From: a bacterium
Lineage (GTDB): Bacteria > UBA8248
Assembly (NCBI GenBank): GCA_965202625.1
Contig: CBDBBI010000002.1
Span: 1-22,635 of the forward strand
Direction of reading: 5' to 3'
Length of the DNA stretch: 22,635 bases
The translations under genes were made by a program, and so were the position numbers. Shown one piece after another: positions 2 to 19,446 of the stretch (its first letter is position 1; each line of letters begins with the position of its first letter). The notes below the pieces were generated by a model. The model was not told where the DNA came from and did no database searches. It saw nothing but the letters and a program-made list of their open reading frames with translations.

Positions 2-2629
2 CGCGCGCGGATGGACGCTTTCGGGGAGGCGGCGGCAAAACGCGCGGGAAAGCGGAAAGTTACAGAAGAGGAGCGCGCGGGGCTGGAGAGGTGCGATCCG
101 GCGGAGCGCATTCTGGAGATGAGAGTCTGCGACCCGGCGATGGGCTCGGGGCATTTCCTCGTCAACCTCGTGGACTACCTCGCCGACAGGGTCATCGAGG
201 CCATGGCCGGAGCGGAGGCCGCCGCAGAGGGCTACGTCTCGCCGCTGGCCGGACGAATCGAGGAAATCCGCGAGACCATCAAGGCGAACGCGGCGAAAGG
301 CGTCTGGCGGCTGGAGGAGGCGCAGCTGGACGATCGCCGCATCGTCCGCCGCATGGTGCTCAAGGGCTGCGTTCACGGAGTGGACAAGAACTCCATGGCG
401 GTGGAACTCGCCAAGGTGGCGCTCTGGCTCCACACCTTCACGGTGGGCGCACCGCTCAGTTTTCTGGATCACCACCTGCGCTGCGGAGACAGCCTTTTCG
501 GCGCATGGGTGCGGGAGGGGAGCGAGAGGGCGAGGGCGCGCGGCAGCACGCTCTTTTTGCGCGAACCCATCCTGCGGGCGATGCGGACGGCGGCGCCGAT
601 GCGAAAGGTCGAGCGGCTCACCGACGCGGAGATGGCCGAGGCGCGCGAATCCGCCGCGCGCTTCGCCGAGGTGGAGGAGGGAACGGCGCCGCTCTCCATC
701 CTGCTTTCCCTCGTCCACGCCCTCGACTGGCTGCGCCCGACAGATAAGGAAGACAAAGCCGCGCTTTTCGACTTCTTCTCCGGCACGTTTGGCGATCCCC
801 TCGATATCGTCCAGGGCACAGCGCCGAGGGACGGGCGGGGGTCGAGGCGCCTCGCCGCCATTCTTGAGCGCGCGCGGATGCTGATGGAGGAGGAGCGCTT
901 TTTCCACTGGCAGGTGGCGTTTCCCGGCGTGTGGTCGGAGTGGGAGCGTGCGGAACGCCAAGGTGGTTTCGACGCGGTTATCGGAAACCCGCCTTGGGCG
1001 CGCCTGGAATTTATGGAAGTCCCTTGGTTTGAAGCAAGAGATGAAAGTATTGCTTTGGAGACGAACGGTTCACGTCGCAAAGAGCGGATTCAGGCTCTCC
1101 GACTAGCCCATGATCCACTTTGGGAGATATATGAGAAAGCGTCCGAGCGTGTAAAGACAGCGGCTCACATTGTGCGAAAGGGCGGAGATTACAGTTTTTT
1201 TAATGCAGGGAAACTGAATTTCTACAAGCTGTTCGTCGAGCGCGCCATGTCTCTGGTGAAGCCGGAAGGTGCGGTCGGCCTGCTCACACCCTCCGGCGTC
1301 GCCTCGGACAAGGCAGGGTCTGGATTCTTTCAGAGCGTGGCGACGGAAGGGCGGCTGCGCGCCCTTTATGATTTTGAGAACAAAAAAGTGTTCTTTCCCG
1401 ACGTTCACGCGTCGTTCAAGTTCTGCATCTTCGTCGCCGGCGCCTCGCCAACTCAAAAACCAGCCAGGTGCGCGTTCTATGTGCACGACGTATCGGAACT
1501 GAAAGACCCCGAGCGATGCTTCCCCCTCACGCCGGAGAATTTCGCCCGCGTGAACCCGAACACGGGCACCGCCCCCATCTTTCGCACGCGGCGGGACGCC
1601 CGGCTGACCACCGCCATCTACGACCGCCTGCCCGTTCTGGTGAATCGCTCCTCAGGTGCGGCCGTGAAGACCTGGCCGGTGAAGTATTCTCAAATGTTCA
1701 ACATGACGTCCGACTCTGCTCTGTTTCGCACGCGCCGGGAGCTCGAGGAAAACGAGGGCGCCTGGCCGATGGGCGGCAATCGCTACCGCAGCAGGGCGGG
1801 AGATTGGGTTCCCCTCTATGAAGGCAAGATGGCGCAGGCGTTCGACCACCGCGCGGCCCGCGTCGTCGTGAAACCCGGAAATACGCACCGTCCCGCTCAG
1901 CCCGTACCCGCCACCCTGGCACAGCATGAGGATCCGGACTGGCTGCCCGATCCGCAGTATTGGGTGTTGAAGAGCGAAATATCATTTCCAAGGGCATCAT
2001 ATTTGCTAACGTTCAAGGACGTGACCGCACCTACCAACGTCCGATCCATGATTGCGACGTTGATCCCAAACGGAGGTGCCGGGAATACGCTTCCTGTCGT
2101 GTTAATGGATGAAAGACAAACCGCCGGAGAAACTGCGAGCTTGCTTGCTAATTTCAATGCGATACCGTTTGACTATGTTGCGCGCCAGAAAATTCAGGGC
2201 CAGCATCTCAACTGGTATATCGTCGAACAGCTCCCCGTCGTTCCACCCGAAACGTTTGAGACTACCCATTTTGGCCCCAAGACTGCCGGAGAGGTTGTGC
2301 GGGAGGCCGTCCTGGAGCTCACCTACACCGCCCACGACATGGCACCCTTCGCCCGGGACATGGGCTACGTGGACGATGCGGGCGAGACGCGCGCACCCTT
2401 CGTCTGGAACGAGGAGCGTCGTCTGCGGCTTCGGGCGAAGCTGGACGCCGTGTTCTTTCATCTCTACGGCGTTGCGGATCGGGACGAGGCGGCCTACGTC
2501 TATTCTACCTTCCCCATCGTCGAGGCCCAGGAGAAGAAGGCTTGCGGCTGCTACCGCTCGCGCGACCTGTGCCTCGCCTGGATGAACGCCCTCGCCGCCG
2601 GCGCACCGGACGCGGACGTGTGCCTGTGA
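2..2629 (+). CDS. Type IIG (Eco57I-like) restriction-modification enzyme / N6-adenine DNA methyltransferase, 5'-partial
   Basis: Frame is open to the left edge. SAM-binding motif VCDPAMGSGHFL, GVDKN..AVELAKVALWL, catalytic GFDAVIGNPPW, then a target-recognition region (YEGKM..AFDHR) and the typical C-terminal tail RAKLDAVFFHLYG. Confidence 0.9.
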   Translation, partial: RARMDAFGEAAAKRAGKRKVTEEERAGLERCDPAERILEMRVCDPAMGSGHFLVNLVDYLADRVIEAMAGAEAAAEGYVSPLAGRIEEIRETIKANAAKGVWRLEEAQLDDRRIVRRMVLKGCVHGVDKNSMAVELAKVALWLHTFTVGAPLSFLDHHLRCGDSLFGAWVREGSERARARGSTLFLREPILRAMRTAAPMRKVERLTDAEMAEARESAARFAEVEEGTAPLSILLSLVHALDWLRPTDKEDKAALFDFFSGTFGDPLDIVQGTAPRDGRGSRRLAAILERARMLMEEERFFHWQVAFPGVWSEWERAERQGGFDAVIGNPPWARLEFMEVPWFEARDESIALETNGSRRKERIQALRLAHDPLWEIYEKASERVKTAAHIVRKGGDYSFFNAGKLNFYKLFVERAMSLVKPEGAVGLLTPSGVASDKAGSGFFQSVATEGRLRALYDFENKKVFFPDVHASFKFCIFVAGASPTQKPARCAFYVHDVSELKDPERCFPLTPENFARVNPNTGTAPIFRTRRDARLTTAIYDRLPVLVNRSSGAAVKTWPVKYSQMFNMTSDSALFRTRRELEENEGAWPMGGNRYRSRAGDWVPLYEGKMAQAFDHRAARVVVKPGNTHRPAQPVPATLAQHEDPDWLPDPQYWVLKSEISFPRASYLLTFKDVTAPTNVRSMIATLIPNGGAGNTLPVVLMDERQTAGETASLLANFNAIPFDYVARQKIQGQHLNWYIVEQLPVVPPETFETTHFGPKTAGEVVREAVLELTYTAHDMAPFARDMGYVDDAGETRAPFVWNEERRLRLRAKLDAVFFHLYGVADRDEAAYVYSTFPIVEAQEKKACGCYRSRDLCLAWMNALAAGAPDADVCL
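2588..2629 (+). repeat. Direct repeat 1, copy A (last 14 codons of the RM gene)
   Basis: gccctcgccgccggcgcaccggacgcggacgtgtgcctgtga; matches 3402-3443 at 34 of 42 positions without gaps. Confidence 0.8.
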
Positions 2630-2717
2630 TAAAATGTAGCGGGCTGTGCGTGTTGCCAGGGCATGATCAACAAATCACTTTTTGGATAAGGTGAACGGGA
2701 ATTTTGGGATATCACAT

Positions 2718-2945
2718 ATGGTCAAGGTAGCGAGAGTTTCTGGGCGTGAGGCGGCCCGAGTGTTTGAAAAAGCGGGATGGGTTTTTGGCAGACGGAAGGG
2801 TAGCCATATGATCTACGTAAAAGACGGAGCGGAAAGACACCTTTCGATCCCTGATCATAAAACCCTGAAGATCGGACTGCTCATCAAGTTGATAAAAGCC
2901 GCGGGGCTGACGCCGCAAGAGTTTGAAGAATTGGGGCGAAAATAG
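2718..2945 (+). CDS. hicA: HicA-family toxin (mRNA interferase)
   Basis: 75 aa basic protein with GW...RRKGSHMIY, SIPDHKTLKIGLL..LIKAAGLT..EF motifs. ATG at 2718 preferred over TTG at 2682. Confidence 0.9.
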   Translation: MVKVARVSGREAARVFEKAGWVFGRRKGSHMIYVKDGAERHLSIPDHKTLKIGLLIKLIKAAGLTPQEFEELGRK

Positions 2946-2990
2946 GCTATAGTCGTGGAGGAGGCATGATGAGTGCCGATCCGAAAAGAT

Positions 2991-3019
2991 TTGACGCGAA
3001 AACGAGAATGACGTATATT
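2991..3019 (+). promoter_or_regulatory. Sigma70-like promoter upstream of hicB
   Basis: TTGACG-N17-TATATT. Confidence 0.6.
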
Positions 3020-3105
3020 TTATGTGTGGGGTGGGCACACCCGAAACGAACGGGAGAGAGACGATGGGGTGTAATGAAGCACACACCCTAAAGGAAGAGA
3101 GAGCC

Positions 3106-3402
3106 ATGATGAAGCAATATGTTCTCAATAAAAGCAGTTATGGCGCGTTTCAAATCGCCCTGGAGCCATGTGAGGTGGACGGCGGATACGTCGCCGAGTG
3201 CCTGGACCTGGAAGGCTGCGTCTCGGAAGGCGACACCCAGGAAAGTGCTCTTGCGAACATCGGCGAGGCGATAGAGGGCATATGCGAATCCATGATGGAA
3301 CACCACGGGCGCATCATGCGCTCCACCGAGAGTTCTGACACGTATTCGGAATCCTCAGAAGAGAGATACACCAGCACGCCTCGTTCTCTCAAATACGCAT
3401 AG
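3106..3402 (+). CDS. hicB: HicB-family antitoxin (short form, no obvious C-terminal DNA-binding domain)
   Basis: LEPCEVDGGYVAECLDLEGCVSEGDTQESALANIGEAI is the HicB N-terminal signature; acidic; purine-rich RBS before ATG 3106; adjacent to hicA. Confidence 0.85.
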   Translation: MMKQYVLNKSSYGAFQIALEPCEVDGGYVAECLDLEGCVSEGDTQESALANIGEAIEGICESMMEHHGRIMRSTESSDTYSESSEERYTSTPRSLKYA

Positions 3403-3443
3403 CCCTCACCGCTGCCGCCCCTGACGCAGACGTGCGTCTGTGA
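3402..3443 (+). repeat. Direct repeat 1, copy B (orphan remnant of an RM gene 3' end)
   Basis: gccctcaccgctgccgcccctgacgcagacgtgcgtctgtga reads ALTAAAPDADVRL* versus ALAAGAPDADVCL*; it starts on the last base of the hicB stop codon. Confidence 0.8.
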
Positions 3444-3452
3444 GGGGGTTTT
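3403..3452 (+). terminator. Possible intrinsic terminator after hicB
   Basis: GACGCA-GACG-TGCGTC hairpin inside CCCTCAC/GTGAGGG arms, followed by GGTTTT. Confidence 0.45.
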
Positions 3453-3472
3453 GTGCTACTCCTGCCTTATAA

Positions 3473-3501
3473 TTGCCGTCGGCGGATAAGTCGCATATCA
3501 T
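3473..3501 (+). promoter_or_regulatory. Sigma70-like promoter for the 3548-4789 gene pair
   Basis: TTGCCG-N17-TATCAT; RBS GGAGGAG lies before GTG 3548. Confidence 0.5.
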
Positions 3502-3547
3502 GCACGCGAAATAGAATGGAGGCGGAAAGCGCGGGAGGAGAGGCGTC

Positions 3548-4020
3548 GTGACCGAACGGCTCTTGTCGGACGACGAACGCAAGGCGTATCGTTCCCTCCC
3601 CAAGCGCGTCACCAACCCCGGGGCGCGCTGGAGCGGCAAGCGCGGCCATCGGCAACGGCGTTACGAAGCTGTTTCCGAAGATGAAGCGCGCGCGCAATTT
3701 CTGATATATCTCCGGCAAAATCTCCACGACGAGATAGATTTCTCCTGCGGCCTCGCGCTGATTCAGAATAGCGGGCAACTTTTCAGTCTCGCGCGCTACA
3801 ACGGCGCGAATCATCTCCATGGCGCCATCGCGCATCGTTGCCACATCCATCGCGCCACGGCGGAGGCACTCTCCGCCGGAAAAAACTCGATAGCCATGCG
3901 GAGGAAACGGACAGATACCGGACTTTGGATGGCGCGCTTGCCTGCCTGATCGAAGATTGCGCCGTTCAAGGTCTGGCCGCCAAACTCGATCATCCGGAGT
4001 TGTTTGATGACGTTGGATAA
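3548..4020 (+). CDS. His-rich hypothetical protein (DUF6978-like), split by a -1 frameshift at 3880-3886
   Basis: ORF 3548-3949 (LARYNGANHLHG...CHIHRAT) continues sensibly in the -1 frame as KKLDSHAEETDRYRTLDGALACLIEDC..., ending at 4020 and overlapping the next start; joined product 157 aa. Confidence 0.65.
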
Positions 4021-4789
4021 AACGGGACTGGAAAAAACCCTGTGCGAGAGGTTATGCAGAAGCATCCGGATACATCAGCGTGATGACGGGGTTCTCATGC
4101 TGGACACGCCGTTCACCTTTCCAGACGGCGATCACTATCCGATCTATCTCTCCGAGGGCCGCACCGGTGGCGTGATCTTAAGCGATCGCGGACATACGCT
4201 CATGCACGCGAGCTACGAGCACGACGTCGATGCTTTCTACGACGGTTCGCGCGCGGTGCTGCGCGAGCAGATTGTCCGTGAGGCGGGGATTGAGGAGAAC
4301 GAGGGCGTTTTTACCATCGAGGCGGTACCGGATGGCGTTGCGGACGCTCTTTTCACCTTGGGCCAGGCGTTGACGAAGATCTACGACCTCACCTTTTTGA
4401 GCCGCGCGCGGGTCGCTTCTACTTTTTACGAAGACCTGAAAGCCTTTCTTTTCAGGATGATAGACGCGGAAAAGATAGAGAGCGACTACATACCGGCGGA
4501 CGTTCCGAATGGGGCGGACTATCCTGTAGATTACCGAATCGCGGGCAAGCACGACGTTCCGATATTCCTCTACGGCGTTCCGGGCCGGGACAAGGCGCGA
4601 CTGACGACCATCATGCTGTCCCACTTTCTGCTGAACCGCCTCTCTTTCGAATCCGTGATCGTGTTCGCCGATCAGCAGCAGATCCCCCGGCTCGACCTCG
4701 CCCGGCTGACCAACGTCGCGGGGACGGCGGTCGCATCCCTGGACGCGGAGGACGACCTTCGCCGCAAAGTCCTTGCACGGGCCGCTTGA
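4007..4789 (+). CDS. DUF1828 (plus DUF1829-like C-terminus) domain protein
   Basis: TPFTFPDGDHYPIYL...LSDRGHTL N-terminal motif; C-terminal FYEDL...YPVDYRI region resembles a PD-(D/E)xK-like fold; GGAG RBS just upstream of ATG 4007. Confidence 0.8.
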   Translation: MTLDKTGLEKTLCERLCRSIRIHQRDDGVLMLDTPFTFPDGDHYPIYLSEGRTGGVILSDRGHTLMHASYEHDVDAFYDGSRAVLREQIVREAGIEENEGVFTIEAVPDGVADALFTLGQALTKIYDLTFLSRARVASTFYEDLKAFLFRMIDAEKIESDYIPADVPNGADYPVDYRIAGKHDVPIFLYGVPGRDKARLTTIMLSHFLLNRLSFESVIVFADQQQIPRLDLARLTNVAGTAVASLDAEDDLRRKVLARAA

Positions 4790-4826
4790 TCCTCCCGTTG
4801 ACGCCGCTCCCCGCCCGTGAAAGCAT
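4739..4826 (+). repeat. Direct repeat 2, copy A (3' end of DUF1828 gene plus putative promoter)
   Basis: 88 bp matching 6636-6723 with about 7 mismatches and no gaps; contains TTGACG-N17-AAGCAT. Confidence 0.9.
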
Positions 4827-4881: not shown

Positions 4882-5931
4882 ATGTTCAAGAACCTGGCGA
4901 TACGGAATTTTCGCGGGCTCGGCAATTTAGAGATTCCCCGCCTGGGCCGAATCAACCTCGTCACGGGCAAAAACAATGCCGGCAAGACGAGCCTGCTTGA
5001 AGCGCTTTTTCTACTCTGCGGCGCAGGGAACCCTCAGTTGTTGTTCAGGGCCAACATGATGCGTGGCATTGACGTGGCGGGAGGTTCGGCGATACCCGGA
5101 ATGTTCTGGAAGCCGCTGTTCACCGATATGGACATGGCAAGGACAGTGGAAATCAAGGGCCGCTCTACCTCGCATGGTCCATGGATATTGCACGTTATGC
5201 TCCATCGACCGGATACCATTGAGCTCCCTTTCGACAGCCCCGATCATATGGTGGAGAGAACGGTATTGTCGGGCGAGAGCAGGCTCAAGTTTTCGTTCCA
5301 AAAAGGGGCAGAACCTCTCGTGGAGAGGAACATGCGTTTCGCGGGTGGTGGGCTTCAGGTTGATCAACCCGTTACGCCCCCGCCGTTTCAGGCGGTGTTC
5401 CTCTCGTCGCGCACGGCGAACCTTCAGGATGACGCTAGGCGTCTCGGGCAGCTGCGGCAACGGAAGCAAGGGGAGTTCGTGACGAATGCTTTGCGGCGCG
5501 TCGAGCCGAGGCTGCGGAGCATTGAGGTGAACTCCGCCTCCGGCGTGCCCATGATTTGGGGCGATATCGGCTTGTCCGAGCTCATACCATTGCAGATGAT
5601 GGGCGAGGGCATGACGCGCATCGCCCGAATGGTTCTGGCGATCTCCGATGCGCGTGGCGGCGTCGTTCTGGTGGATGAGGTCGAAAACGGCATCCATCAT
5701 TCCGTGTTGGGCAAGGTTTGGGGGGCTATCGGAGAGGCGGCCCGGCAATGTGATACGCAGATCGTCGCGGCGACGCACAGCTTCGAGTGCATGGAGGCGG
5801 CGCATGGCGCGCTCGACGAAGAGGATTTGCTCGTTCACCGACTGGAAGCAAGCGACGAAACCATACGCTGCGTCACTCTTAACGCGGAAGAAATCAGGAC
5901 GACGGTCGAATACAATTTTGAGATACGCTGA
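4882..5931 (+). CDS. ABC-type / AAA_15-AAA_21 family ATPase
   Basis: IRNFRGL start, Walker A GKNNAGKT, signature-like MGEG, Walker B VLVDEVENGIH, H-loop ATHS; GAGGAG RBS before ATG 4882. Confidence 0.9.
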   Translation: MFKNLAIRNFRGLGNLEIPRLGRINLVTGKNNAGKTSLLEALFLLCGAGNPQLLFRANMMRGIDVAGGSAIPGMFWKPLFTDMDMARTVEIKGRSTSHGPWILHVMLHRPDTIELPFDSPDHMVERTVLSGESRLKFSFQKGAEPLVERNMRFAGGGLQVDQPVTPPPFQAVFLSSRTANLQDDARRLGQLRQRKQGEFVTNALRRVEPRLRSIEVNSASGVPMIWGDIGLSELIPLQMMGEGMTRIARMVLAISDARGGVVLVDEVENGIHHSVLGKVWGAIGEAARQCDTQIVAATHSFECMEAAHGALDEEDLLVHRLEASDETIRCVTLNAEEIRTTVEYNFEIR

Positions 5932-5933
5932 AC

Positions 5934-6554
5934 GTGCCCCCTCAAAAACAGATTAAAACGCCCAGGCAGCTCCTTGTCGAGGGAAACGATCAGCGCAACT
6001 TCTTTGAGGCGTTCGTCAAGCACCTCTCGCTTTGCGACATACAGATACAGGATTATGGAGGCGGGGATGAGTTGCGACGTTTTCTGCAGGCATTCATCAG
6101 CAGGTGGTCGGTTTTTGGCTCGGTAAAGAGCCTCGGCATCGTGCGCGACGCAGAGGATTCCTTTCAGGACACCTTCCGGAGCGTTCAGGGAGCACTTAAG
6201 CGGGTGAACCTTCCCGTCCCGAAGGAAGCGGGACAGCGACAAGGCGGACAAGGCGGGAAGCCCGACGTGAGCGTGTTCATACTGCCGGACAACGCCTCTC
6301 CGGGGATGCTCGAGACGCTCCTTTGCCGCGCGTTCGCAAACTCTCCAGAGAACGTCTGCATAGATCATTTTTTCAAGTGTGCCGAAGCCGTGCCGAGCGT
6401 ATCCATTCGAAGGCCCGACAAGGCGCGCGCTTTCGCCTATCTGGCGACGAGGCGCGATGCGCACCATTCTGTCGGCGTGGCGGCACAACAGGGCGTCTGG
6501 AATCTGGATGACGACGCTTTTCAGGGGCTGCGCGATTTTTTGAAGAATCTGTAG
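5934..6554 (+). CDS. DUF3226-like TOPRIM-fold protein, putative nuclease partner of the ATPase
   Basis: LLVEGNDQ (TOPRIM glutamate), LGIVRDAE (DxD-like), PGMLETLL; starts 2 nt after the ATPase stop. Confidence 0.8.
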   Translation: MPPQKQIKTPRQLLVEGNDQRNFFEAFVKHLSLCDIQIQDYGGGDELRRFLQAFISRWSVFGSVKSLGIVRDAEDSFQDTFRSVQGALKRVNLPVPKEAGQRQGGQGGKPDVSVFILPDNASPGMLETLLCRAFANSPENVCIDHFFKCAEAVPSVSIRRPDKARAFAYLATRRDAHHSVGVAAQQGVWNLDDDAFQGLRDFLKNL

Positions 6555-6635
6555 CGGGCGGGAAAGGCGGGTGGACATGTCAACGACCGGAAGGATGAAA
6601 GCATGAGAACCATGCGGCGCGTCGGGCGTCGCGCA

Positions 6636-6723
6636 CTGGCCGTGGAGGATGGCCTTCGCCGCAAACTCCTTGCACGGGCCCCTTGATCCCCCCGTTGACG
6701 CCGCTCCCCGCCCGTGAAAGCAT
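6636..6723 (+). repeat. Direct repeat 2, copy B
   Basis: Offset 1897 bp from copy A; reads LAVEDGLRRKLLARAP* versus LDAEDDLRRKVLARAA*. Confidence 0.9.
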
Positions 6724-6761
6724 GGCCGGGCATCTCGTTTTCCGGACGGGAGGATGATCAG

Positions 6762-7148
6762 ATGAAAAATGATTGCAACCTGGGCGCGTTCGCCCATGCC
6801 TTGCGCGATCTGGACGAGGTGCGGGCGGAAGCGGAGGAAGAGGGTTTTCCGGTTCCGACGGATGCGGCGTTCCAAAACGCACGGCGTCTGCTGAGAGAAA
6901 TGCACGCCATATTCCCCCGCCGTTTCGAGGTGTATCCCATGCCGGATGGGGAGATCGCGGTTGACGCGACGAATGGCCGAGGGAGTTCCGTCCTGCTGTT
7001 GTGCAGATCAGACGGCGCTGCCCTGTGCTCGGTCAACATGGCGGGTGCGCATCGACGCGCCAGATATGCCACTGCCGAGACGCTTCCCGACGATTTTGTG
7101 CGCGAAGCAATGGGCGAACTTGAACGGCAGGGTGATGGGGTGGAGTGA
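6762..7148 (+). CDS. Hypothetical protein, 128 aa
   Basis: GGGAGG RBS before ATG 6762; globular-looking acidic sequence (EVYPMPDGEIAVD); no family confidently recognised. Confidence 0.7.
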   Translation: MKNDCNLGAFAHALRDLDEVRAEAEEEGFPVPTDAAFQNARRLLREMHAIFPRRFEVYPMPDGEIAVDATNGRGSSVLLLCRSDGAALCSVNMAGAHRRARYATAETLPDDFVREAMGELERQGDGVE

Positions 7149-7248
7149 AAGCACCGAGAAAATCAGCGGTGATGAAGAACCCGGATGGGAGTATTTTCCA
7201 GAAGGCAAGCGGAGCGGACGCTTCGGGCTGGCGGGAAAGGAGATAAAA

Positions 7249-7845
7249 ATGACCTGGTTCCTCAAAAGTATCGCGCATCTGGCGGCGGTTTTTCTGCTCT
7301 GTGCGCTTCTCCCCTCCGGAAGCGGGGCGGCGGAGGGTGCGGAGGAGAACGTCGTCTTTCTCAAGGCGTTCTATCCCCTGGACGAGCCGAGGTTTCACTG
7401 CGTGGACGTACCGGGACACCGCTCCGGTGTGAACACCGCCGCCGCCCTCGTGGTCCACACCTGCAAGGAGGGGATGTGGAACCTCGATGAGCGTTTTGAT
7501 TTGTCCGCCGTCTCGAAGGGTGCGTTGCGAATGCCCGCATACGGGCTGTGCGTCGTCGCCGATTCCGCCGCCGAGGGGGCGAAGGTGCGTCTGCGCGCGT
7601 GCGGTGCCCCGCTCGGCGTCTGGCGTTTTGAGAATTACCGCTTAAGTCTTGAGCACCATCCAGAGAAATGCCTCACCATCGGCACGGAACCCTCACGTCT
7701 CACGCCGGGCGGGCACAGGTTTCCGAGCCGCCACGTGGCCCGCTCCCTCGGGCTTGCGACGTGTGCGGAAGAAGCCCTGGAGAGACAACTCTGGCGTCTG
7801 GAGCGGCCCATGCGGCGCACCGGCTCCATCATGCCCTTCAAGTAG
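7249..7845 (+). CDS. Secreted ricin-B/beta-trefoil lectin-like protein
   Basis: AAGGAG RBS; N-terminal signal peptide; three Cys-pair repeats (CVDV..HTC, LCVV..RAC, KCLT..ATC) and a terminal RQLW motif. Confidence 0.7.
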   Translation: MTWFLKSIAHLAAVFLLCALLPSGSGAAEGAEENVVFLKAFYPLDEPRFHCVDVPGHRSGVNTAAALVVHTCKEGMWNLDERFDLSAVSKGALRMPAYGLCVVADSAAEGAKVRLRACGAPLGVWRFENYRLSLEHHPEKCLTIGTEPSRLTPGGHRFPSRHVARSLGLATCAEEALERQLWRLERPMRRTGSIMPFK

Positions 7846-11726: not shown

Positions 11727-11811
11727 TTCCCCCTCCCCTTCATCCGCTTGCCGTGGGGAGACCGGCGTTTCGGAATCCAGACCGCGCGCAAGCGAAAACG
11801 GAGGAACCCCC

Positions 11812-12642: not shown

Positions 12643-12684
12643 GAGGTCGCCAAACCTCCATTTTCCCTTGAGGTGGTTGAGAAC

Positions 12685-13575
12685 ATGACGATTACGAAAG
12701 TGGACGGATACGCCTATTATCCCCAAAGCAGGGGGCGTATTGAGGCGATGCGGCAGGCCGACCCCGCCAGAACGCCCTGGACGCCGCTGCCCCGACCGCT
12801 CGCCGAATGCCGGGTCACCCTCGTCTCCACGGCGGGCATATTCATGAAGGGGGACGTCTCCTTCGATTACGCGCGCGAATGGCGAGAGCCGCACTGGGGG
12901 GATCCCACCCACCGGGAGATTCCGAAATCGGCCGGCCAGGACGATTGCGAATACTCCCATCTGCACGTCAACACCGAATATCTGAAAGCGGACAGGAACG
13001 TGGCGTTTCCGGTGGACGTTTTTCTGGACTACGAGCGGGAGGGCAAGGTCGGCACCCTCGCCGACACACTGTATTCCACCATGGGCTACACGCCCAACTT
13101 CCATCCCCTGATCAAGAAGACGGCCCCCCTCATGGCGGAGAATATGCGCTCTGAGGGCGTGGATGCGGCGTTTTTGTTTCCCGTCTGACCGCTTTGCATG
13201 CGGTCCGTGAGCCTGCTGCAAAGAAAGCTGGAAGAGCTGGGAATCGCCACCATCTCGATATGCAACCAGCCCGCCGTCTCCGAGAAGGTCTGCGTACCGA
13301 GGGCGGCGTTCATTCAGTATCCCTTCGGACGGATTCTGGGAGACGTGGGCGACAGGGCGGGCCAGCGCGCGGTGTGCGACGACGTGTGCGCGCACCTGGA
13401 AGCCGCACAGCGCCCCAACGCCTATCGCCACCTGCCCCATGCGTGGCATGAGCCGCCCGAAGAGGCGCAGTGGAAGCCCCTGCAGCCCGCCCCCATGCAC
13501 GTGCTGAGAAACAAGGGAACGGCACCCAAAGGCCTCGCGCATTACCAGGACGACGAGCGGCCGGATTTGGCCTAG
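12685..13575 (+). CDS. GrdB/PrdB-like reductase selenoprotein B family protein, Sec at TGA 13186-13188
   Basis: ORFs 12673-13188 and 13198-13575 are in the same frame, joined as FLFPV-U-PLCMRSV (UxxC). Family motifs VTLVSTAG, GDPTHREIP, DRNVAFPVD, LEELGIATI, PRA..YPFG. SECIS-like hairpin follows; GAGGTGG RBS before ATG 12685. Confidence 0.88.
13189..13223 (+). promoter_or_regulatory. Bacterial SECIS element
   Basis: CTTTGCA (13192-13198) pairs with TGCAAAG (13217-13223); inner GCGG/CTGC and TC/GA pairs; apical loop with GT about 19 nt after the UGA. Confidence 0.75.
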
Positions 13576-13907
13576 AACAGCCGCCCGCCGATGCGCGGGT
13601 TTTTCGCATCGGGAGATAAGAGCACCACCTCGCCCCGCGCGTTCGGGACGCCGAGCGTCAGCACCTCGGAGACGAAGGGGCCGATTTGTCTCGGCGGAAA
13701 GTTCACCACTCCGAGCACGAGCTTCCCCCTGAGTGCCTCCTTCTCGTAGAGGGCGACGATCTGCGCGGAGGATTTCTTCACGCCTACCTCCTCGCCGAAA
13801 TCGATCCGGAGCTTGTAGGCGGGCTTTCTCGCCTCGGGAAAATCCTCCGCCTCGATGATGCGTCCCACGCGGACGTCGAGCTTCTCAAAATCCTCCATCG
13901 TCGCCAC
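13572..13907 (-). CDS. csaA: CsaA tRNA-binding / protein export chaperone
   Basis: EDFEKLDVRVGRI, FPEARKPAYKL.IDFG, KKSSAQI, VNFPPRQIG.F.SEVLTLG; its stop overlaps the selenoprotein stop (CTAG). Confidence 0.95.
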   Translation of the reverse strand: MATMEDFEKLDVRVGRIIEAEDFPEARKPAYKLRIDFGEEVGVKKSSAQIVALYEKEALRGKLVLGVVNFPPRQIGPFVSEVLTLGVPNARGEVVLLSPDAKNPRIGGRLF

Positions 13908-14078
13908 CTGGTCTCTCTCCTCCTCGGATTTTCCTTGACAACTTTTATTATTTTCAAAACAATCCGCAAAATGGTTGGTAAATTTATTTGCCCCTATTGT
14001 GGATGTTTCGAAAGAATTTTCATCGCCAAGAGCAAGAAGTTTAAGTATTTATACTAGCGGATGGGAAAGGAATATATA

Positions 14079-14255
14079 ATGTTAGTTAAGGCGAAACTTT
14101 TTCGAGGTAATGAAATTATATTGGCAGTTCAAGATGATGTAACTCAAAGAGGCGATATTGAACATTTAGTGAGCAAATTGATGAAAGAATTTCACATTAA
14201 ATTTCCTGAGGCTTCATTATGGGAACCGAATTACAAAATTTCTTTAGATAGTTAA
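14079..14255 (+). CDS. Small AT-rich hypothetical protein (58 aa)
   Basis: AAGGA RBS before ATG 14079; lies in a low-GC insert (about 13930-14315) with TTGACA-N17-AACAAT at 13935-13963. Confidence 0.55.
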   Translation: MLVKAKLFRGNEIILAVQDDVTQRGDIEHLVSKLMKEFHIKFPEASLWEPNYKISLDS

Positions 14256-14315
14256 ATCTCCTTTCATTAGTATTTATGCTGCGGATTCAATCGTATATAA
14301 GTCCCAAAAATGTTC

Positions 14316-15203
14316 TTACGCCTCGTCAATCGGTTCGCCCTCGGTTTTCTCCATCTCCAGAATCTCCGCGCGCAGCCGCGTCGTCAGGGGGCCGGGGGCG
14401 GGTATGGGGCGCGCATCGACCTCCTGCACCGCGCACACCCGGCTGAACGATGAGGTGAGAAAGCACTCGTCCGCCGTGTAGAGGTCATAGAGCGTGAGGT
14501 CCGCCTCAGAGGCGGGAATCCCCTCGCGCGCGGCGATCTCCATCACCGCCCTTCGGGTGATGCCGTCGAGGGCGTTGTGGACGTGGGGCGTTTTCAGCGC
14601 GCCGTCCTTCACGAGAAAAACGTTCTCGCCCGGTGCCTCCGCCACGAAGCCGCGCACATCCAGAAGAATCGCCTCGTCATATCCCGCCTCCACGGCCTCG
14701 ATCCGCGCCATCACGTTGTTGAGATAATTGAGCGACTTCACGCGCGCCTCCAGGGATGCGGACGGCACCTTGCGCACCGCCGCCGTCTTGAGGCGCAGCC
14801 CCGCACCCTTCGCGCGATAGCTCGCGCCCGTCTCGGGCGGCGGGGCGGGTGCGTGCAGCAGCACGGCGAGCGTCGCTTCTCCCGTCACCCTCGGATCGAG
14901 CAGGGGGTAGCCCGCTCCCCTGGAGACGACGAGGCGCAGATACACCTCGTCCACGCCCGACCTGCGCGCGCATTCCTTGACGATGTGCGCAATTCTCTCC
15001 CGGGGTTCGGGAAGGTCGATTTTGAGTGCGCGCGCGGAGCACTCCATGCGGTCGAGATGCTCCCGGAAGCGGAAGATGCGCCGCCCCCTCAGCGTCATGG
15101 ATTCAAAGAGGCCGTCCCCGTAGAGAAACCCGTGATCAAAGGCGGAGACGCGCGCCTCGGAGGCGGCGACGTATGCGCCGTTCACGTAGCAGACGAGGGA
15201 CAT
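14316..15203 (-). CDS. Class IV PLP aminotransferase (branched-chain amino acid aminotransferase-like)
   Basis: DHGFLYGDGLFE, HLDR, VKSLNYLNN (PLP lysine), EAPGENVF, LDGITR, ADECFLTSS. Substrate not certain, so no symbol given. Confidence 0.9.
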   Translation of the reverse strand: MSLVCYVNGAYVAASEARVSAFDHGFLYGDGLFESMTLRGRRIFRFREHLDRMECSARALKIDLPEPRERIAHIVKECARRSGVDEVYLRLVVSRGAGYPLLDPRVTGEATLAVLLHAPAPPPETGASYRAKGAGLRLKTAAVRKVPSASLEARVKSLNYLNNVMARIEAVEAGYDEAILLDVRGFVAEAPGENVFLVKDGALKTPHVHNALDGITRRAVMEIAAREGIPASEADLTLYDLYTADECFLTSSFSRVCAVQEVDARPIPAPGPLTTRLRAEILEMEKTEGEPIDEA

Positions 15204-15214
15204 GGGGGTGCTCT

Positions 15215-15958
15215 CTAGATCGCGCACCAGCCGTCATCGACGATGAGGTCGAGGCCGTGTACCGCACTGGCGTCCTCGGAGGCGAGGAACACCGCCGCAC
15301 CCGCCATCTCGGCCGTCGATATGTAGGCCCGGCCCGTGGGGGTGTAGCTCGCCATGCGCTTCACGAACTCCGGGTCGTCCTGTAGGTGCTGGTTGAGGGG
15401 CGTGGCCGTGTTGCCCGGCGAGATGGAGTTCACGTTGATGCCGCACTTCGATATCTCCGCCGCAAGCGCGCGGGTGAGCATATAGACTCCGCCCTTGCTC
15501 GCGCAGTAGGGCACCGCGTTGGGAAAGGCGTGGGTGGCGGCGATGGAGGCGACGAAGATGATCTTGCCGGCCTTATTCTCCTTCATGATGGGCACGACCG
15601 CCTGGGCGAGCAGGAAGTTGCCCTTGAGGTTGACGTCGATGACGTCGTCCCATTCCTCCTCGGAATATCCCTCCAGCTCCTTGTTGATCATGATGCCCGC
15701 GTTTCCGACCAGAACGTCCACCGTCCCGAAGGCGGCCACCACGTCCGCCACCATCTCCTCCACGTCCGCCTTGCGGGATACGTCGCACGGAAACGCCCTG
15801 GCCGCCTCGCCGATCTCGGAGGCGAGGGCCTCTCCTTTCTCCGCAGTGCGGTTCACGATGGCCACGCGCGCACCCTCCTCCGCATAGCGGCGGCAGATGG
15901 CCGCACCGATTCCCTGCGATCCGCCGGTGACGACAGCGACTTTCTCCTTCAGCCTCAT
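15215..15958 (-). CDS. Short-chain dehydrogenase/reductase
   Basis: VTGGSQGIG, NAG, YCASK motifs; GAGGAG RBS before ATG 15958. Confidence 0.95.
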   Translation of the reverse strand: MRLKEKVAVVTGGSQGIGAAICRRYAEEGARVAIVNRTAEKGEALASEIGEAARAFPCDVSRKADVEEMVADVVAAFGTVDVLVGNAGIMINKELEGYSEEEWDDVIDVNLKGNFLLAQAVVPIMKENKAGKIIFVASIAATHAFPNAVPYCASKGGVYMLTRALAAEISKCGINVNSISPGNTATPLNQHLQDDPEFVKRMASYTPTGRAYISTAEMAGAAVFLASEDASAVHGLDLIVDDGWCAI

Positions 15959-16040
15959 GGGCGTCTCCTCCCCTCGGGGCGTTCGGGCTTTTCGGACAAG
16001 CGAAAAATCTCCCGCCTGATGCAGTGTGCCGCGCATGATA
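15873..16040 (-). repeat. Direct repeat 3, copy A (SDR putative -10 element, leader and first 29 codons)
   Basis: 168 bp matching 19279-19446 with about 8 mismatches and no gaps. Confidence 0.95.
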
Positions 16041-16219
16041 GCCCCCTTTGGCCGGGAGGGGAAGGGGGAGGGAATGGCCCCGTTCTGTCTCGTGCTCGCC
16101 ACCCGGCATGGCGTCTCCGGCGCACCTGTTCCATGAAAATGTCCCTTTGAGGACTTTTATTTAGCAATTCCACCTTAAAATACTCCGATATTCAGTGATA
16201 TTTTGCTCTGAAATTTCTA

Positions 16220-16248
16220 TTGCGACATCAATGTATGGGGACTATATT
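16220..16248 (+). promoter_or_regulatory. Sigma70-like promoter of the Xre operon
   Basis: TTGCGA-N17-TATATT in an AT-rich stretch; palindrome GTCC-N6-GGAC at 16141-16154 may be an operator. Confidence 0.55.
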
Positions 16249-16295
16249 TTTAAACGTGAAGCTTCCGAGGCTCTCATTCATATTTGGAGGTTGTG

Positions 16296-17318
16296 ATGAT
16301 CATACATGCAGAAACACTGAAGAAGCTGCGCAAGGCGAGGGGGCTCAGCCAGGAGATGCTGGCGGACGTGTCGGGCGTCTCCAAGAAAACCATCGCCAGA
16401 ATAGAGACGGGAAAGGGGGGCGAGACGCGCGGAGGCACCGCCAAGGAGCTCGCCAAGGCCCTGGGCGTCAAGATCGAAGGCCTGGCCAAGGAGTTTGAAG
16501 ACGAAGATAACGACAACGAGCAAGACGTCTCTCGGCGAATGCGCGGCTGGACGTTCTATCACCCCAGGATTCCCCTCAGTGGCAAAACCCTGCTCGACTA
16601 TGGCCTGGTGAGGGAGCATTACCGCGTGGACGCGCTGTCGCTCATTCGTGCGGCGCCGCTGCTCTTCACCCTTCTGGCGGAGATGAGCCTCGCCGACCGC
16701 CGCCGCCGGGCCGATGAAGTGGAAGCAGCTTTGAAAGAAAAACCAGAACACCTGGGGTTCGCGGCGGAGGCCGATCTCGATTCCGAGTTCACCTCCATCT
16801 CCTTGCGGGATATTTTCGCTGGTCGGGTACGGGACGATGATGCCGCTCGAAACGAAGAGTATTTTGACGAAGAGGAGCGCAACCCTTTCTCCGATTTTTT
16901 GGGACGGCTGGCGAAGGAATTGGGGCCCCAAAACGACGCGATTGCCCCTGAGAATATCCATTTCGATGCGGACAGGGGCGGATTCCACCACCGGTTCTCT
17001 CTTTTCAAGAAATTCCGGGAAAAACTCACGGGCGGTTCCTCTCGCGCCTCCTGTGCCCTTGATAGCGGATATGCGCGCATCAGGGATATTCCCAGAGAGC
17101 TCATGCCCGGGTGGACAGCAGACGAGAAGAAAGACAAAGACGAGGCCGCCGCCGCCGCGCGCGTGAAGTGGCTGGAGGAGCGCATTCCGGACGAGGACTG
17201 GGAGGAATGGGAGGAGGAGGAATCTAAACTTGCAATCGCAATTCGTGAATTTGAAATCGAAGAAGAAAAAGATACGACCAATGACTCGCCAAACGAGGGA
17301 GGAAGCGAGAATGCGTAA
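16296..17318 (+). CDS. Xre-family HTH protein with large unknown C-terminal domain and acidic tail
   Basis: LKKLRKARGLSQEMLADVSGVSKKTIARIETG...LAKALGV; GGAGG RBS; tail EDWEEWEEEES...EIEEEKD. Confidence 0.9.
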   Translation: MIIHAETLKKLRKARGLSQEMLADVSGVSKKTIARIETGKGGETRGGTAKELAKALGVKIEGLAKEFEDEDNDNEQDVSRRMRGWTFYHPRIPLSGKTLLDYGLVREHYRVDALSLIRAAPLLFTLLAEMSLADRRRRADEVEAALKEKPEHLGFAAEADLDSEFTSISLRDIFAGRVRDDDAARNEEYFDEEERNPFSDFLGRLAKELGPQNDAIAPENIHFDADRGGFHHRFSLFKKFREKLTGGSSRASCALDSGYARIRDIPRELMPGWTADEKKDKDEAAAAARVKWLEERIPDEDWEEWEEEESKLAIAIREFEIEEEKDTTNDSPNEGGSENA

Positions 17319-17646
17319 ATTCCACCTGAACGTGACCAAACACGCCGAGGCGCGCATGAGCCAGCGAGGGGTGCGAAATAAAGACGTCGCGTTGGTCTAT
17401 CAACACGGGACGCAGATCGGCCCCTCCGAGTGGTTCATGAAACGCTCTGACGCTGCGCGTGAAATCCGGCAGCTGGAGGGCGACTTGGGGAGCGGGAACC
17501 AGCGCGCTCTGAAGCGTAAGGTGCAGCGGCTTGAGCGTCTGAGGAAGGGTCTCCAGGTCGTCGTTCAAGGCGACGCTATGCGCACCTGTTATTGGCCAAG
17601 CACCGCGCGTCAGCGTCGCGTGCGCCGCAGGGGGAGGAATACCTGA
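17311..17646 (+). CDS. DUF4258-like small basic protein, copy 1 (putative toxin)
   Basis: TKHAEARMSQRGV...DV..V..HG motif and VVVQGDAMRTCY end; start overlaps the Xre stop. Confidence 0.75.
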   Translation: MRKFHLNVTKHAEARMSQRGVRNKDVALVYQHGTQIGPSEWFMKRSDAAREIRQLEGDLGSGNQRALKRKVQRLERLRKGLQVVVQGDAMRTCYWPSTARQRRVRRRGRNT

Positions 17647-18257
17647 TGTCTCCATTCCACACCATTGAAATTGATTTTGGCGTCCACAAAGCGATTGAGG
17701 CTCGACAAAATTTTGCCGAGTCGCCGAATGATGTCTTGCGTCGTCTTTTGAGAATTGAAGATCGCGGTAGAGAGGCGCTGTCGGGCAAAGGCTTGACAGG
17801 GCGGGGGCCTTCTGAAAATTCCACAATCAGGAGGAGGGCGAACGATAAGCGCCGACCTGCGGGGAGCGCAAGTAAAAGAAGAAAAAGGCGCGGTAAAAAA
17901 AAGGGCGGTGGATATGCGGGCGATGACGTAATTAGGGGCCAATTCCTGCATGTCCGCGCGAAACATCATTTCGTTGAAGAAATGCCTCCGAGGGATGGGC
18001 GATCGTGGTGGGGGGAAGGCCTGGAGTTGCCCCATGGAACGAAGTTGCGGATGGAATACCGCCGTCGCAAGTATACCGGCGTCATCCATAATGGGGATTG
18101 GCTGGTGGAGGGCAGAGTGTATAAAAGTCCGTCAGGCGCAGCCGGTGGCGTTGCCGTCACCAGGGATGGAGAGAAAACGAATCTTAACGGCTGGCGGTAT
18201 TGGAAAGTGAAGCGCCCTTCTGATGGAAGTTGGATTCCCATTGAAAAATTCCGCTAG
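17646..18257 (+). CDS. SeqA-N-terminal-like domain fused to a RAMA-like domain
   Basis: TIEIDFGVHKAIEARQNFAESPNDVLRRLL resembles the SeqA N-terminus; basic linker; C-terminal YKSPSGAAGGV...NGWRYW matches the RAMA/DUF4357-type pattern; TGATG coupling to the previous gene. Confidence 0.7.
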   Translation: MSPFHTIEIDFGVHKAIEARQNFAESPNDVLRRLLRIEDRGREALSGKGLTGRGPSENSTIRRRANDKRRPAGSASKRRKRRGKKKGGGYAGDDVIRGQFLHVRAKHHFVEEMPPRDGRSWWGEGLELPHGTKLRMEYRRRKYTGVIHNGDWLVEGRVYKSPSGAAGGVAVTRDGEKTNLNGWRYWKVKRPSDGSWIPIEKFR

Positions 18258-18967
18258 CCGGATGAGGATAAAAAAATTCTTGGAGATTCGTCCAACGAGG
18301 GAGGAATAGCGAATGTTGAAATTCCACCTGAACGTGACCGAACACGCCGAGACGCGCATGAGCCAGCGAGGGGTGCGAGCGGAAGACGTCAATTTGGTCT
18401 TGGATTACGGGACGCAGATCGGCCCCTCCGAGTGGTTCATGAAAGACTCCGACGCTGCGCGTGAAATGGAAGGACGCCCTCCTGAGAGGGATGAAAGATC
18501 GTGGTGGTACAAAGGCGTGGAGTTGCCCCATGGAACGAAGTTGCGGATGAAATACGGCCCTTGCGAGTATACCGGCGTCATCCATAATGGCCATTGGTTG
18601 GTGGAGGGCAGAGTGTATAAAAGTCCGTCAGGCGCAGCCGGTGGTGTTGCCGTCACCAAGAAGGGGCAGAAAATTCAGATTGATGGCTGGATTTATTGGG
18701 AAGTGAAGCGCCCTTTTGACCAAAGTTGGATTGTCATAAACAGATTGCGCTAGCCGGATGAGGATAAAAAAGTTCTTGGTAATTCGCCAAACTAGGGAGG
18801 AAGCGAGAATGCGTAAATTCCACCTGAACGTGACCGAACACGCCGAGACGCGCATGAGCCAGCGAGGGGTGCGAGAGGAGGACGTCAAGTTGGTCTTGGA
18901 TTACGGGACGCAGATCGGCCCCTCCGAGTGGTTCATGAAAGACTCCGACGTTGCGCGTGAAATGGAA
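17991..18967 (+). repeat. Near-tandem duplication, 496-bp period (17991-18471 and 18487-18967)
   Basis: Stops 18257/18753 and starts 18313/18809 are each 496 bp apart; long identical blocks such as gtggagggcagagtgtataaaagtccgtcaggcgcagccggtgg. Confidence 0.9.
18313..18753 (+). CDS. Chimeric protein: DUF4258-like N-terminal half fused to RAMA-like domain
   Basis: First about 53 aa nearly identical to 18809-19177; last about 88 aa paralogous to the C-terminus of 17646-18257; intact frame; GGAGG RBS. Confidence 0.8.
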   Translation: MLKFHLNVTEHAETRMSQRGVRAEDVNLVLDYGTQIGPSEWFMKDSDAAREMEGRPPERDERSWWYKGVELPHGTKLRMKYGPCEYTGVIHNGHWLVEGRVYKSPSGAAGGVAVTKKGQKIQIDGWIYWEVKRPFDQSWIVINRLR

Positions 18968-19177
18968 AACATAAAGCGCGTGTTCCAGCAGCTGGAGGGC
19001 GACTTGGGGAGCGGGAAGCAGCTATTGGAACGCGCCCTGAAACGTAAAGCCCAACGGCTTGAGCGTCTGAGGGGTCTCCAGGTCGTCGTTGAAGGGGATG
19101 ATATGATCACCTGCCTTCGACCAAGCGAGGCGCATCTGCGTCGCGTGCGCCGGGCGGGAAGGAGGCACCGCAGATGA
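18809..19177 (+). CDS. DUF4258-like small basic protein, copy 3
   Basis: TEHAETRMSQRGV motif; full-length paralogue of 17311-17646 with small in-frame indels; GGGAGG RBS. Confidence 0.78.
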   Translation: MRKFHLNVTEHAETRMSQRGVREEDVKLVLDYGTQIGPSEWFMKDSDVAREMENIKRVFQQLEGDLGSGKQLLERALKRKAQRLERLRGLQVVVEGDDMITCLRPSEAHLRRVRRAGRRHRR

Positions 19178-19277
19178 GCGGCGAGGCAAACCCGTTTGAG
19201 GAGCTCTGTCGCCGCGAGTGAAGGGATGGACGCATCCCGACGTCGGGAGCGGCGAGGATGCCGAGGCGCCCGCGCCC

Positions 19278-19364
19278 GCCCTCCTCCGCATAGCGGCGGC
19301 AGATGGCCGCACCAATTCCCTGCGAGCCGCCGGTGACGACAGCGACTTTCTCCTTCAGCCTCAT
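19278..19364 (-). pseudogene. Truncated 5' fragment of the SDR gene
   Basis: MRLKEKVAVVTGGSQGIGAAICRRYAEEG is identical in protein to the start of 15215-15958, then homology stops. Confidence 0.9.
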
Positions 19365-19446
19365 GGGCGTCTCCTCCCCTCCGGGCGTTCGGGCTTTTCC
19401 GATAAGCGAAAATTCTCCCGCCTGATGAAGTGTGCCGCACATGATA
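19279..19446 (-). repeat. Direct repeat 3, copy B
   Basis: Offset 3406 bp from copy A; begins just after the stop codon of the AT-rich gene at 19452. Confidence 0.95.

What the first reader, a model, noticed from the sequence alone, without database searches (positions are those of the whole stretch)
2588..19446. Accessory cassettes bracketed by diverged duplicates of the neighbouring gene end, with no integrase
Seen four times. hicAB lies between 2588-2629 and 3402-3443 (RM 3' end). ATPase/TOPRIM lies between 4739-4826 and 6636-6723 (DUF1828 3' end). The Xre cassette lies between 15873-16040 and 19279-19446 (SDR 5' end). The RAMA-like genes are followed by an Xre-tail remnant plus another DUF4258 copy. 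Several junctions fall at cargo stop codons (3402, 18257, 18753, about 19452). The repeats are much longer than transposon target duplications, and no recombinase or transposase is in the window. Inference: a recurring gene-acquisition route, such as homology-anchored illegitimate recombination or insertion-duplication of DNA from relatives, that also leaves cassettes excisable or amplifiable by RecA.
Basis: partly seen in the sequence, partly recalled or inferred. Interest (0 to 1): 0.75.

Follow-up and report, generated by a model that had tools for sequence, protein, structure and literature searches.

The report
Recombination scars from stacked gene cassettes
Short spare copies of gene ends in a sponge-dwelling bacterium mark places where two strains' alternative defence-type gene cassettes were joined end to end, most likely by the cell's own recombination, a known process that is seen here unusually clearly and repeatedly.

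Summary
All four repeats are real. They are better read as seams than as insertion duplications. Each site has the form left gene – cassette A – seam – cassette B – right gene. Relatives carry several of these cassettes singly at the same two slots.

The window is an alternative haplotype of the main contig. That contig keeps the Xre cassette but lacks the SDR copy and the AT-rich gene next to it. So the copy travels with that gene, and it is joined at a CCCTC microhomology.

The main contig has 10 orphan 3' gene ends at 7 loci, all on the outward side, against 0 in inverted or distant controls. The only tyrosine recombinases are XerC/D-like.

Best explanation: homology-facilitated illegitimate recombination between strains, a published mechanism. 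Classical transformation is doubtful, because 22 of 23 genus genomes lack a pilus ATPase. Donor and recipient cannot be told apart. The scan has reported this scar type before, in this genome (e1-6815508) and in many others.

The parts
11..2629 (+). 3' part of a type IIG restriction-modification gene; left anchor of slot 1
   Evidence: Pfam Eco57I, PADLOC REase_MTase_IIG; full ORF on main contig 2137581-2141735
2588..2629 (+). Intact RM 3' end (ALAAGAPDADVCL*)
2718..3402 (+). hicA-hicB cassette; directly after RM in G007, G015, G033
   Evidence: Pfam HicA_toxin, HicB_lk_antitox
3402..3443 (+). Seam 1: orphan RM 3' end (ALTAAAPDADVRL*), 34/42, 5 synonymous and 3 non-synonymous changes; CCCTC at the hicB stop resembles the native hicB downstream sequence
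   Evidence: spanned by X1 and X4 contigs
3548..4789 (+). Two-gene cassette: small partner ORF (frameshifted here relative to the main contig) plus DUF1828 (PDC-M24B-like)
4739..4826 (+). DUF1828 3' end plus the conserved promoter-like motif of the slot
4882..6554 (+). AAA ATPase + DUF3226 pair (AbiLi/PDC-M38-like); directly after RM in G032, directly before the lectin gene in G001
6636..6723 (+). Seam 2: orphan DUF1828 end plus promoter-like motif, 92%; 3 synonymous and 7 non-synonymous changes (neutral-like)
   Evidence: spanned by an X1 contig
6762..7148 (+). Small ORF of no known family after seam 2
7249..7845 (+). Beta-trefoil lectin-domain gene; right anchor of slot 1
   Evidence: follows RM directly in G006
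15215..16049 (-). SDR gene and its upstream region; left anchor of slot 2
16296..17646 (+). Xre HTH gene + DUF4258-like gene, resident allele of slot 2
17646..18257 (+). RAMA-domain gene
   Evidence: Pfam RAMA below cut-off, PDC-S14
18258..18312 (+). Seam 4: orphan Xre tail (PDEDKKILGDSSNEGGIAN), shorter than the intact tail
17976..18967 (+). 496-bp tandem duplication (RAMA domain, Xre tail, DUF4258 start) that creates a chimeric DUF4258-RAMA ORF at 18313-18753
   Evidence: a one-unit form is a joint in run X4, 17760 to 18487
18809..19177 (+). Second full DUF4258 gene
19241..19281 (+). Start of the right-flank dispersed repeat, truncated at the CCCTC microhomology; left half of seam 3
19279..19453 (-). 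Seam 3: orphan SDR 5' end and upstream region; both coding differences synonymous; 3 of 9 differences shared with the main contig's intact allele
19452..19865 (-). AT-rich ORF (about 32% GC) found in none of 22 other genus genomes; absent from the main contig together with seam 3
20036..20200 (.). Dispersed intergenic repeat (35 BLAST hits on the main contig); right flank of slot 2 before the hydantoinase B gene

Best explanation
The window holds two variable intergenic slots (RM to lectin gene; SDR to hydantoinase B). Strains of this sponge-associated Nitrospinota lineage fill them with different small, mostly defence-like cassettes and swap them by ordinary homologous recombination in the flanks. 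Rarely, an incoming fragment from another strain recombines homologously on one side only. Its other end joins at a short GC-rich microhomology (homology-facilitated illegitimate recombination, HFIR). When that joint lies just inside a flanking gene, both alleles end up in tandem and the seam holds a piece of the flanking gene: left gene - A - seam - B - right gene. The copy is diverged from birth because it is another strain's allele, and it then decays. Later homologous recombination moves, converts, expands or trims these stacks. Shown: the repeats, the single-cassette alleles in relatives, a sister haplotype with only one allele of slot 2, a microhomology at seam 3, and no dedicated recombinase. 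Inferred: the one-sided crossover, RecA dependence, the direction of transfer, and how the DNA entered (transduction by Mu-like phages or vesicles is at least as likely as transformation).
For: Single alleles in relatives: of the 9 other genus genomes with this RM gene, RM is followed by hicAB in 3 (G007, G015, G033), by the ATPase pair in 1 (G032), by the lectin gene in 1 (G006) and by other DNA in 4. None showed an RM-end repeat in the roughly 1.5 kb fetched. SDR-Xre-DUF4258-hydB without an SDR repeat occurs in 5 of 12 relatives. The main contig lacks 19186-20041 and reads ...GCGCCCGCCCTC|ACGCG where the window reads ...GCGCCCGCCCTC|CTCCGC (SDR); intact SDR has GCGCGCACCCTC, 10 of 12 matching. 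Run X4 shows joints 19185>20068 and 19260>20056, so alleles without the SDR copy exist as DNA. Copies look like alleles: RM remnant 5 of 8 changes synonymous against 0.28 expected (p=0.04); SDR remnant 2 of 2; pooled over 14 hand-picked remnants 34 of 81 against 0.25 (p=0.0006, after trimming the non-homologous overrun of the SDR alignment). Genome-wide: 17 of 2062 genes have an orphan direct 3'-end copy within 10 kb, 14 of them on the outward side (p=0.006). After I dropped 6 in tandem paralogue arrays and 1 with no gene between, 10 remain at 7 loci, all outward; inverted and distant controls gave 0. Two tyrosine recombinases only, XerD and XerC-like; no serine resolvase or large serine recombinase. 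Other haplotigs show the same plasticity: C9 has one more cassette plus seam than the main contig, and C8 lacks a 2.3-kb block between 118-bp repeats. Mechanism and 3-10 bp microhomology as described in PMC3240628; displacement arrays in PMC5361080.
Against: The second parental allele was not found for any seam: no RM-DUF1828 neighbour in the genus or metagenome loci and no SDR next to the AT-rich gene. Direction is unresolved: of 9 SDR differences, 3 side remnant with main contig, 4 side intact with main contig, 2 are other. The DUF1828 (3 of 10 synonymous) and guaA (0 of 10) remnants look like plain decay. No microhomology was identified at seam 4, and seam 1's rests on distant relatives. 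HFIR is described for naturally competent species and usually deletes recipient DNA (PMC3240628). Here the pilus ATPase is missing, recJ and xseA are present, and almost nothing is deleted at seam 3. The pooled synonymous test uses hand-picked, non-independent cases. No other genome was scanned, so I cannot say that the density is unusual.
Confidence: 0.63

Rival explanations
1. Local tandem duplication of a whole slot at a microhomology, followed by replacement of one copy's cargo by ordinary double crossover or by deletion. It gives the same final architecture with no foreign DNA at the illegitimate step.
For: The 496-bp RAMA/DUF4258 tandem is such a duplication. The middle DUF4258 copy of the main contig is closer to the first copy (147/155) than to the window's middle copy (139/155), which shows exchange among copies. 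Identical seam positions recur in haplotig C9. The DUF1828 remnant decays neutrally.
Against: Replacement would need a homology arm as short as 42 bp at seam 1. There is a synonymous excess in the RM and SDR remnants and in the pooled set.
Confidence: 0.17
2. Insertion-duplication: a donor fragment carrying a gene end plus cargo circularises by end-joining and integrates by one RecA crossover in the shared gene end.
For: It gives the same bracketed structure with no loss of recipient DNA, as at seam 3. In E. coli this route outnumbered HFIR about tenfold (PMC3240628, passages read).
Against: Repeats of 42-88 bp are short for a single crossover. No circular ('goes back') joint is among those listed.
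Confidence: 0.11
3. Decayed att sites of integrase-borne islets whose integrase has been lost or acts in trans.
For: Many genus members carry numerous tyrosine recombinases (up to 54 matches). One genome-wide remnant is the guaA 3' end, which I recall as an island integration site (not checked).
Against: The four seams share no core. Targets include accessory genes (DUF1828, Xre) and a 5' end. This genome has only XerC/D-like enzymes. Relatives' alleles at these slots carry neither repeats nor, among the window genes tested, an integrase-type arrangement (their other ORFs were not annotated).
Confidence: 0.06
4. Assembly or read chimeras of co-occurring strains.
For: The window is a 22.6-kb alternative haplotig from a mixed population. 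Seam 3 is on this haplotig only and is not spanned by a listed contig.
Against: Seams 1, 2 and 4 are on both haplotypes. Seams 1 and 2 are spanned by contigs of a second study, with their own variants. The copies carry private substitutions.
Confidence: 0.03

Closest known systems
Homology-facilitated illegitimate recombination (HFIR; S. pneumoniae, A. baylyi, P. stutzeri; summarised in PMC3240628, introduction and passages read)
   Same: One non-homologous joint with a short microhomology, no dedicated recombinase, foreign cargo added next to a homologous flank.
   Different: Described in naturally competent species and usually with a deletion similar in size to the insert. Here no pilus ATPase was found and the resident allele is kept.
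Displacement arrays of V. cholerae T6SS effector-immunity modules and Rhs orphan 3' ends (PMC5361080, passages read)
   Same: Successive additions at one locus leave orphan 3' gene ends and keep old cargo; HFIR is proposed; copies derive from different strains.
   Different: There the anchor is a conserved toxin-delivery gene. Here the anchors are unrelated genes (RM, DUF1828, SDR 5' end, Xre) and the cargo is TA or defence-like.
HGT hotspots without mobility genes, diversified by double crossover in flanking core genes (PMC5635113, abstract and passages read)
   Same: Fixed slots between conserved genes with rapid cargo turnover and no integrase; the window's 13935-14311 insert, which has no repeat, fits this directly.
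   Different: Double crossover replaces alleles and leaves no duplicated gene end; it does not explain the stacking step.
Integrase-borne genomic islands that restore a gene's 3' end (general knowledge, recalled)
   Same: Gene end duplicated on the far side of the cargo.
   Different: No integrase, no shared att core, long and diverged repeats, and accessory genes and a 5' end as targets.

Membership tests
HFIR product | Non-homologous joint with 3-10 bp microhomology | tested here: met
   Seam 3: CCCTC exact, 10 of 12 overall, against the main-contig allele. Seam 1 suggestive only; none identified at seam 4.
HFIR product | Homologous crossover on one side only, with donor DNA from another strain | tested here: inconclusive
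   Synonymous excess and shared alleles support a foreign allele; no donor tract or second parent was found.
HFIR product | Occurs during natural transformation | tested here: inconclusive
   ComEC, DprA and ComM-type genes present; PF00437 ATPase absent here and over the cut-off in 1 of 23 genus genomes; one marginal HHH_3 hit not verified as ComEA.
HFIR product | Deletion of recipient DNA similar in size to the insert (typical, not obligatory) | tested here: not met
   At seam 3 the main-contig allele is retained up to the joint; other seams lack a known parent.
HFIR product | RecA dependence | not testable with these tools
   Needs genetics in a cultured relative.
Displacement array (Rhs/T6SS type) | Orphan gene ends on the outward side of the intact gene | tested here: met
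   Window seams 1, 2 and 4; 10 of 10 retained genome-wide cases, 14 of 17 before filtering.
Displacement array (Rhs/T6SS type) | Anchor is a polymorphic toxin or effector gene with immunity genes | tested here: not met
   Anchors are RM, DUF1828, SDR and Xre.
Integrase-borne genomic island | Cognate integrase in or near the island | tested here: not met
   None among 26 window ORFs; the genome has only XerD and XerC-like enzymes and no serine recombinase.
Integrase-borne genomic island | Conserved att core shared by the sites | tested here: not met
   Self-comparison of the window shows no sequence shared between the four repeat families.
Integron cassette array | IntI integrase | tested here: not met
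   Both recombinases score far below the TIGR02249 cut-off (141 and 109 against 265 bits).
Integron cassette array | attC sites between cassettes | not tested
   No attC model was run; the spacers are recognisably gene-end copies.

The most novel reading that the evidence does not exclude
In a sub-lineage that has lost all integrases except XerC/D and has no DNA-uptake pilus, chimeric seams (end of the right flank fused to end of the left flank) act as reusable adaptors. Once one forms, ordinary RecA crossovers can stack, swap and drop defence cassettes like an integron without an integrase, with DNA delivered by Mu-like phage transduction or by pilus-independent uptake. This would be the main route of defence-island growth in these sponge symbionts, and denser than in other bacteria.
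Probability: 0.2. Interest if true: 0.62.

Novelty: new member of a known kind. Interest (0 to 1): 0.33.

Why it matters
Many bacterial gene-acquisition hotspots have no integrase (PMC5635113), and double crossover explains replacement but not growth of such slots. This genome gives a tidy natural record of the growth step: several seams, coexisting haplotypes with and without a cassette, and no dedicated recombinase. That makes it a good test bed for how often illegitimate joints build defence islands in the wild, and for how DNA moves in a lineage without a competence pilus. The mechanism itself is published, and the scan has recorded such scars in many genomes, so this is a well-documented example rather than a new system.

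Tried and rejected
1. Search for the second parental alleles. The SDR 5' pattern gave 0 matches in metagenome contigs. The AT-rich ORF was found in 0 of 22 other genus genomes and 0 viral contigs. None of 10 metagenome DUF1828 loci or 2 examined genus loci has RM upstream. An X4 contig links RM 2524 to 3888 with unknown sequence between; this is too weak to use.

2. In run X1 a contig starts exactly at 15873 and another ends at 15902. This may mark a branch at the SDR repeat boundary but cannot be resolved; not counted as support.

3. The idea that loss of ssDNA exonucleases or mismatch repair raises HFIR was rejected: recJ, xseA and mutS are present.

4. The Mu transposase family search rang in no control genome and is uninformative. 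IS families were not surveyed genome-wide.

5. The idea that the 42-bp RM remnant is only the slot's promoter motif: by eye it matches the promoter of G033 at about 16 of 24 bases and the RM end at 20 of 24; rejected.

6. The first BLAST-based genome scan missed the 42-bp repeat and was swamped by a CRISPR-like array, so it was replaced by the gene-end scan. That scan rests on my own simple gene caller, which missed some AT-rich ORFs.

7. The ESM Atlas gave no hit at 0.9 or above for the AT-rich ORF. The sigma-70 scan did not report the TTGAC-N-GAAAGCAT motif, so its promoter role is inferred from conservation only.

8. Literature searches listed no genome-wide survey of such scars; five searches of an open-access library do not show that none exists. 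No supplements were read.
Full report
Observation. The four repeat sets are present as described. RM end: 2588-2629/3402-3443, 34 of 42. DUF1828 end plus 37 downstream bases: 4739-4826/6636-6723, 92%. SDR 5' end and upstream region: 15865-16049/19271-19453, 93.5%. There is also a 496-bp tandem covering a RAMA domain, an Xre tail and a DUF4258 start. Pfam and PADLOC name the cargo as HicAB, DUF1828 (PDC-M24B-like), an AAA ATPase with DUF3226 (AbiLi/PDC-M38-like), Xre, DUF4258 and RAMA-like proteins, with no recombinase.

Context. The window is contig C2 of a 10-contig assembly and aligns at about 96% to the 2.9-Mb contig C10 at 2139107-2160594. It is an alternative haplotype from a mixed population. 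Runs holding the DNA are sponge metagenomes and one coded organism, from two studies. A close homologue of the ATPase lies on a record titled Nitrospinota (L048).

Real, not chimeric. C10 carries the RM and DUF1828 repeats and the RAMA tandem. Run X4, probably the source sample and so not independent, has a contig identical to 1711-4823. Run X1, from the other study, spans both remnants with its own variants. Seam 3 rests on this haplotig alone.

Slots and alleles. Of 22 other genus genomes, 9 have this RM gene. It is followed by hicAB in 3, by the ATPase pair in 1, by the lectin gene in 1 and by other DNA in 4. In G001 the ATPase pair sits directly before the lectin gene. At the SDR-hydantoinase slot, 5 of 12 relatives fetched have Xre plus DUF4258 with no SDR repeat, and the rest have other or no cargo. 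The window therefore holds, in tandem, several alleles that relatives hold singly.

Seam 3 in detail. C10 keeps the Xre-RAMA-DUF4258 block but lacks 19186-20041, which is the SDR copy and the AT-rich ORF. The seam is chimeric: the start of the right-flank dispersed repeat runs to CCCTC and then continues as SDR. The two parents match at 10 of 12 bases there. X4 shows two shorter forms as joints (19185>20068 and 19260>20056). So the duplicate does not mark the Xre cassette as the newcomer. Either allele could have been the donor, and the nine SDR differences split 3, 4 and 2.

Other seams. At seam 1, relatives' hicB is followed by CCCC-rich sequence (G007 reads CCCCTC), which resembles the GCCCTC at the start of the RM repeat. 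This may explain why the joint sits at the stop codon. Seam 2 duplicates a promoter-like motif conserved at this slot across the genus, and both downstream cassettes begin right after it; promoter capture is an inference. Seam 4 is an orphan Xre tail plus a second DUF4258 gene, later duplicated locally. X4 has a one-unit form, and C10's middle copy shows exchange with the first.

Origin of the divergence. RM remnant: 5 of 8 changes synonymous (p=0.04). SDR: 2 of 2. DUF1828: 3 of 10. guaA: 0 of 10. Pooled over 14 hand-picked cases: 34 of 81 against 25% expected (p=0.0006). This fits foreign alleles plus later decay but does not exclude plain duplication for individual cases.

Genome-wide. With my own gene calls, 17 of 2062 genes on C10 have an orphan direct copy of their 3' end within 10 kb, 14 on the outward side. 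Nine have a 5' copy and 3 a mid-gene copy (all three in one tandem family). Inverted and distant controls gave none. Dropping 6 in paralogue arrays and 1 without an intervening gene leaves 10 at 7 loci. The host genes include a glutamate-cysteine ligase family gene, an acyl-CoA synthetase, guaA, an ABC permease and two other restriction-type genes. Haplotig C8 lacks a 2.3-kb Mu-like block between 118-bp repeats. Other haplotig differences, and the window's own 13935-14311 insert, are replacements with no repeat, as expected from double crossover. No other genome was scanned for comparison.

Machinery. There are two tyrosine recombinases, scoring best as XerD and XerC, and no serine recombinase. 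ComEC, DprA and ComM-type genes are present, but these also rang in most control genomes. No PF00437 ATPase is present, and only 1 of 23 genus genomes has one over the cut-off. recJ, xseA and mutS are present. Haplotig C3 carries Mu-like capsid and tail genes and C10 a Mu-like remnant, so transduction is a plausible, untested DNA source.

Comparison with known work. PMC3240628 (introduction and matched passages read) defines HFIR, gives 3-10 bp microhomology and notes that circularisation plus single crossover can outnumber it in E. coli. PMC5361080 (matched passages read) proposes HFIR for displacement arrays with orphan 3' ends. PMC5635113 (abstract and matched passages read) shows that many hotspots lack integrases and turn over by crossover in flanking genes. 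The structure works like an HFIR displacement array. Membership is only partly testable: the microhomology is met at one seam, transformation is doubtful, and the usual deletion is absent. The scan's own notes list 92 findings with these key words in at least 91 genomes; they are unchecked and are not support.

Verdict. A real, recurrent recombination scar of a known kind. Interest 0.33.

Noticed in passing
window 12685-13575 (+): The GrdB-like ORF ends at TGA 13186-13188 and the frame continues in register as Pro-Leu-Cys into the next ORF: probably one selenoprotein with a U-x-x-C motif (motif recalled; no SECIS test).
   Followed up: no
window 998-1215: This part of the type IIG RM gene does not align with the main contig's allele (69% identity in the 1000-1500 bin against 94-100% around it), suggesting a swapped specificity segment between co-occurring strains.
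   Followed up: no
window 13935-14311: AT-rich insert with a 63-aa ORF of no known family between the tRNA-binding-domain gene and the aminotransferase gene; the main contig has about 18 unrelated bases there and no repeat flanks it.
   Followed up: partly
window 3548-4020: The small partner gene of DUF1828 is frameshifted by one base near 3879 in this haplotype relative to the main contig and run X1; the pair is conserved in other metagenome loci.
   Followed up: partly
window 16296-17318: Xre is only about 79-88% identical to the sister haplotype, against 98% for neighbouring core genes, and 44-50% in protein to genus orthologues; the main contig's copy seems to have an altered tail.
   Followed up: no
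window 20036-20200: Dispersed intergenic repeat with 35 hits on the main contig, in both orientations; REP- or MITE-like, family not identified.
   Followed up: partly
L072 (G000:C3) 4941-19669: Mu-like phage head and tail operon absent from the main contig, with a 295-bp repeat (95%) duplicating a tail-chaperone gene around a repeat-rich ORF.
   Followed up: partly
G000:C10 2386300-2391450: Regular 66-bp array of about 35-bp repeats, CRISPR-like, with one inverted copy about 4.4 kb upstream that could be a tracrRNA anti-repeat (interpretation recalled, untested).
   Followed up: no
genus-wide: Tyrosine recombinase matches range from 2 (5 of 23 genomes, including this one) to 54, so some members have shed nearly all integrases.
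   Followed up: no
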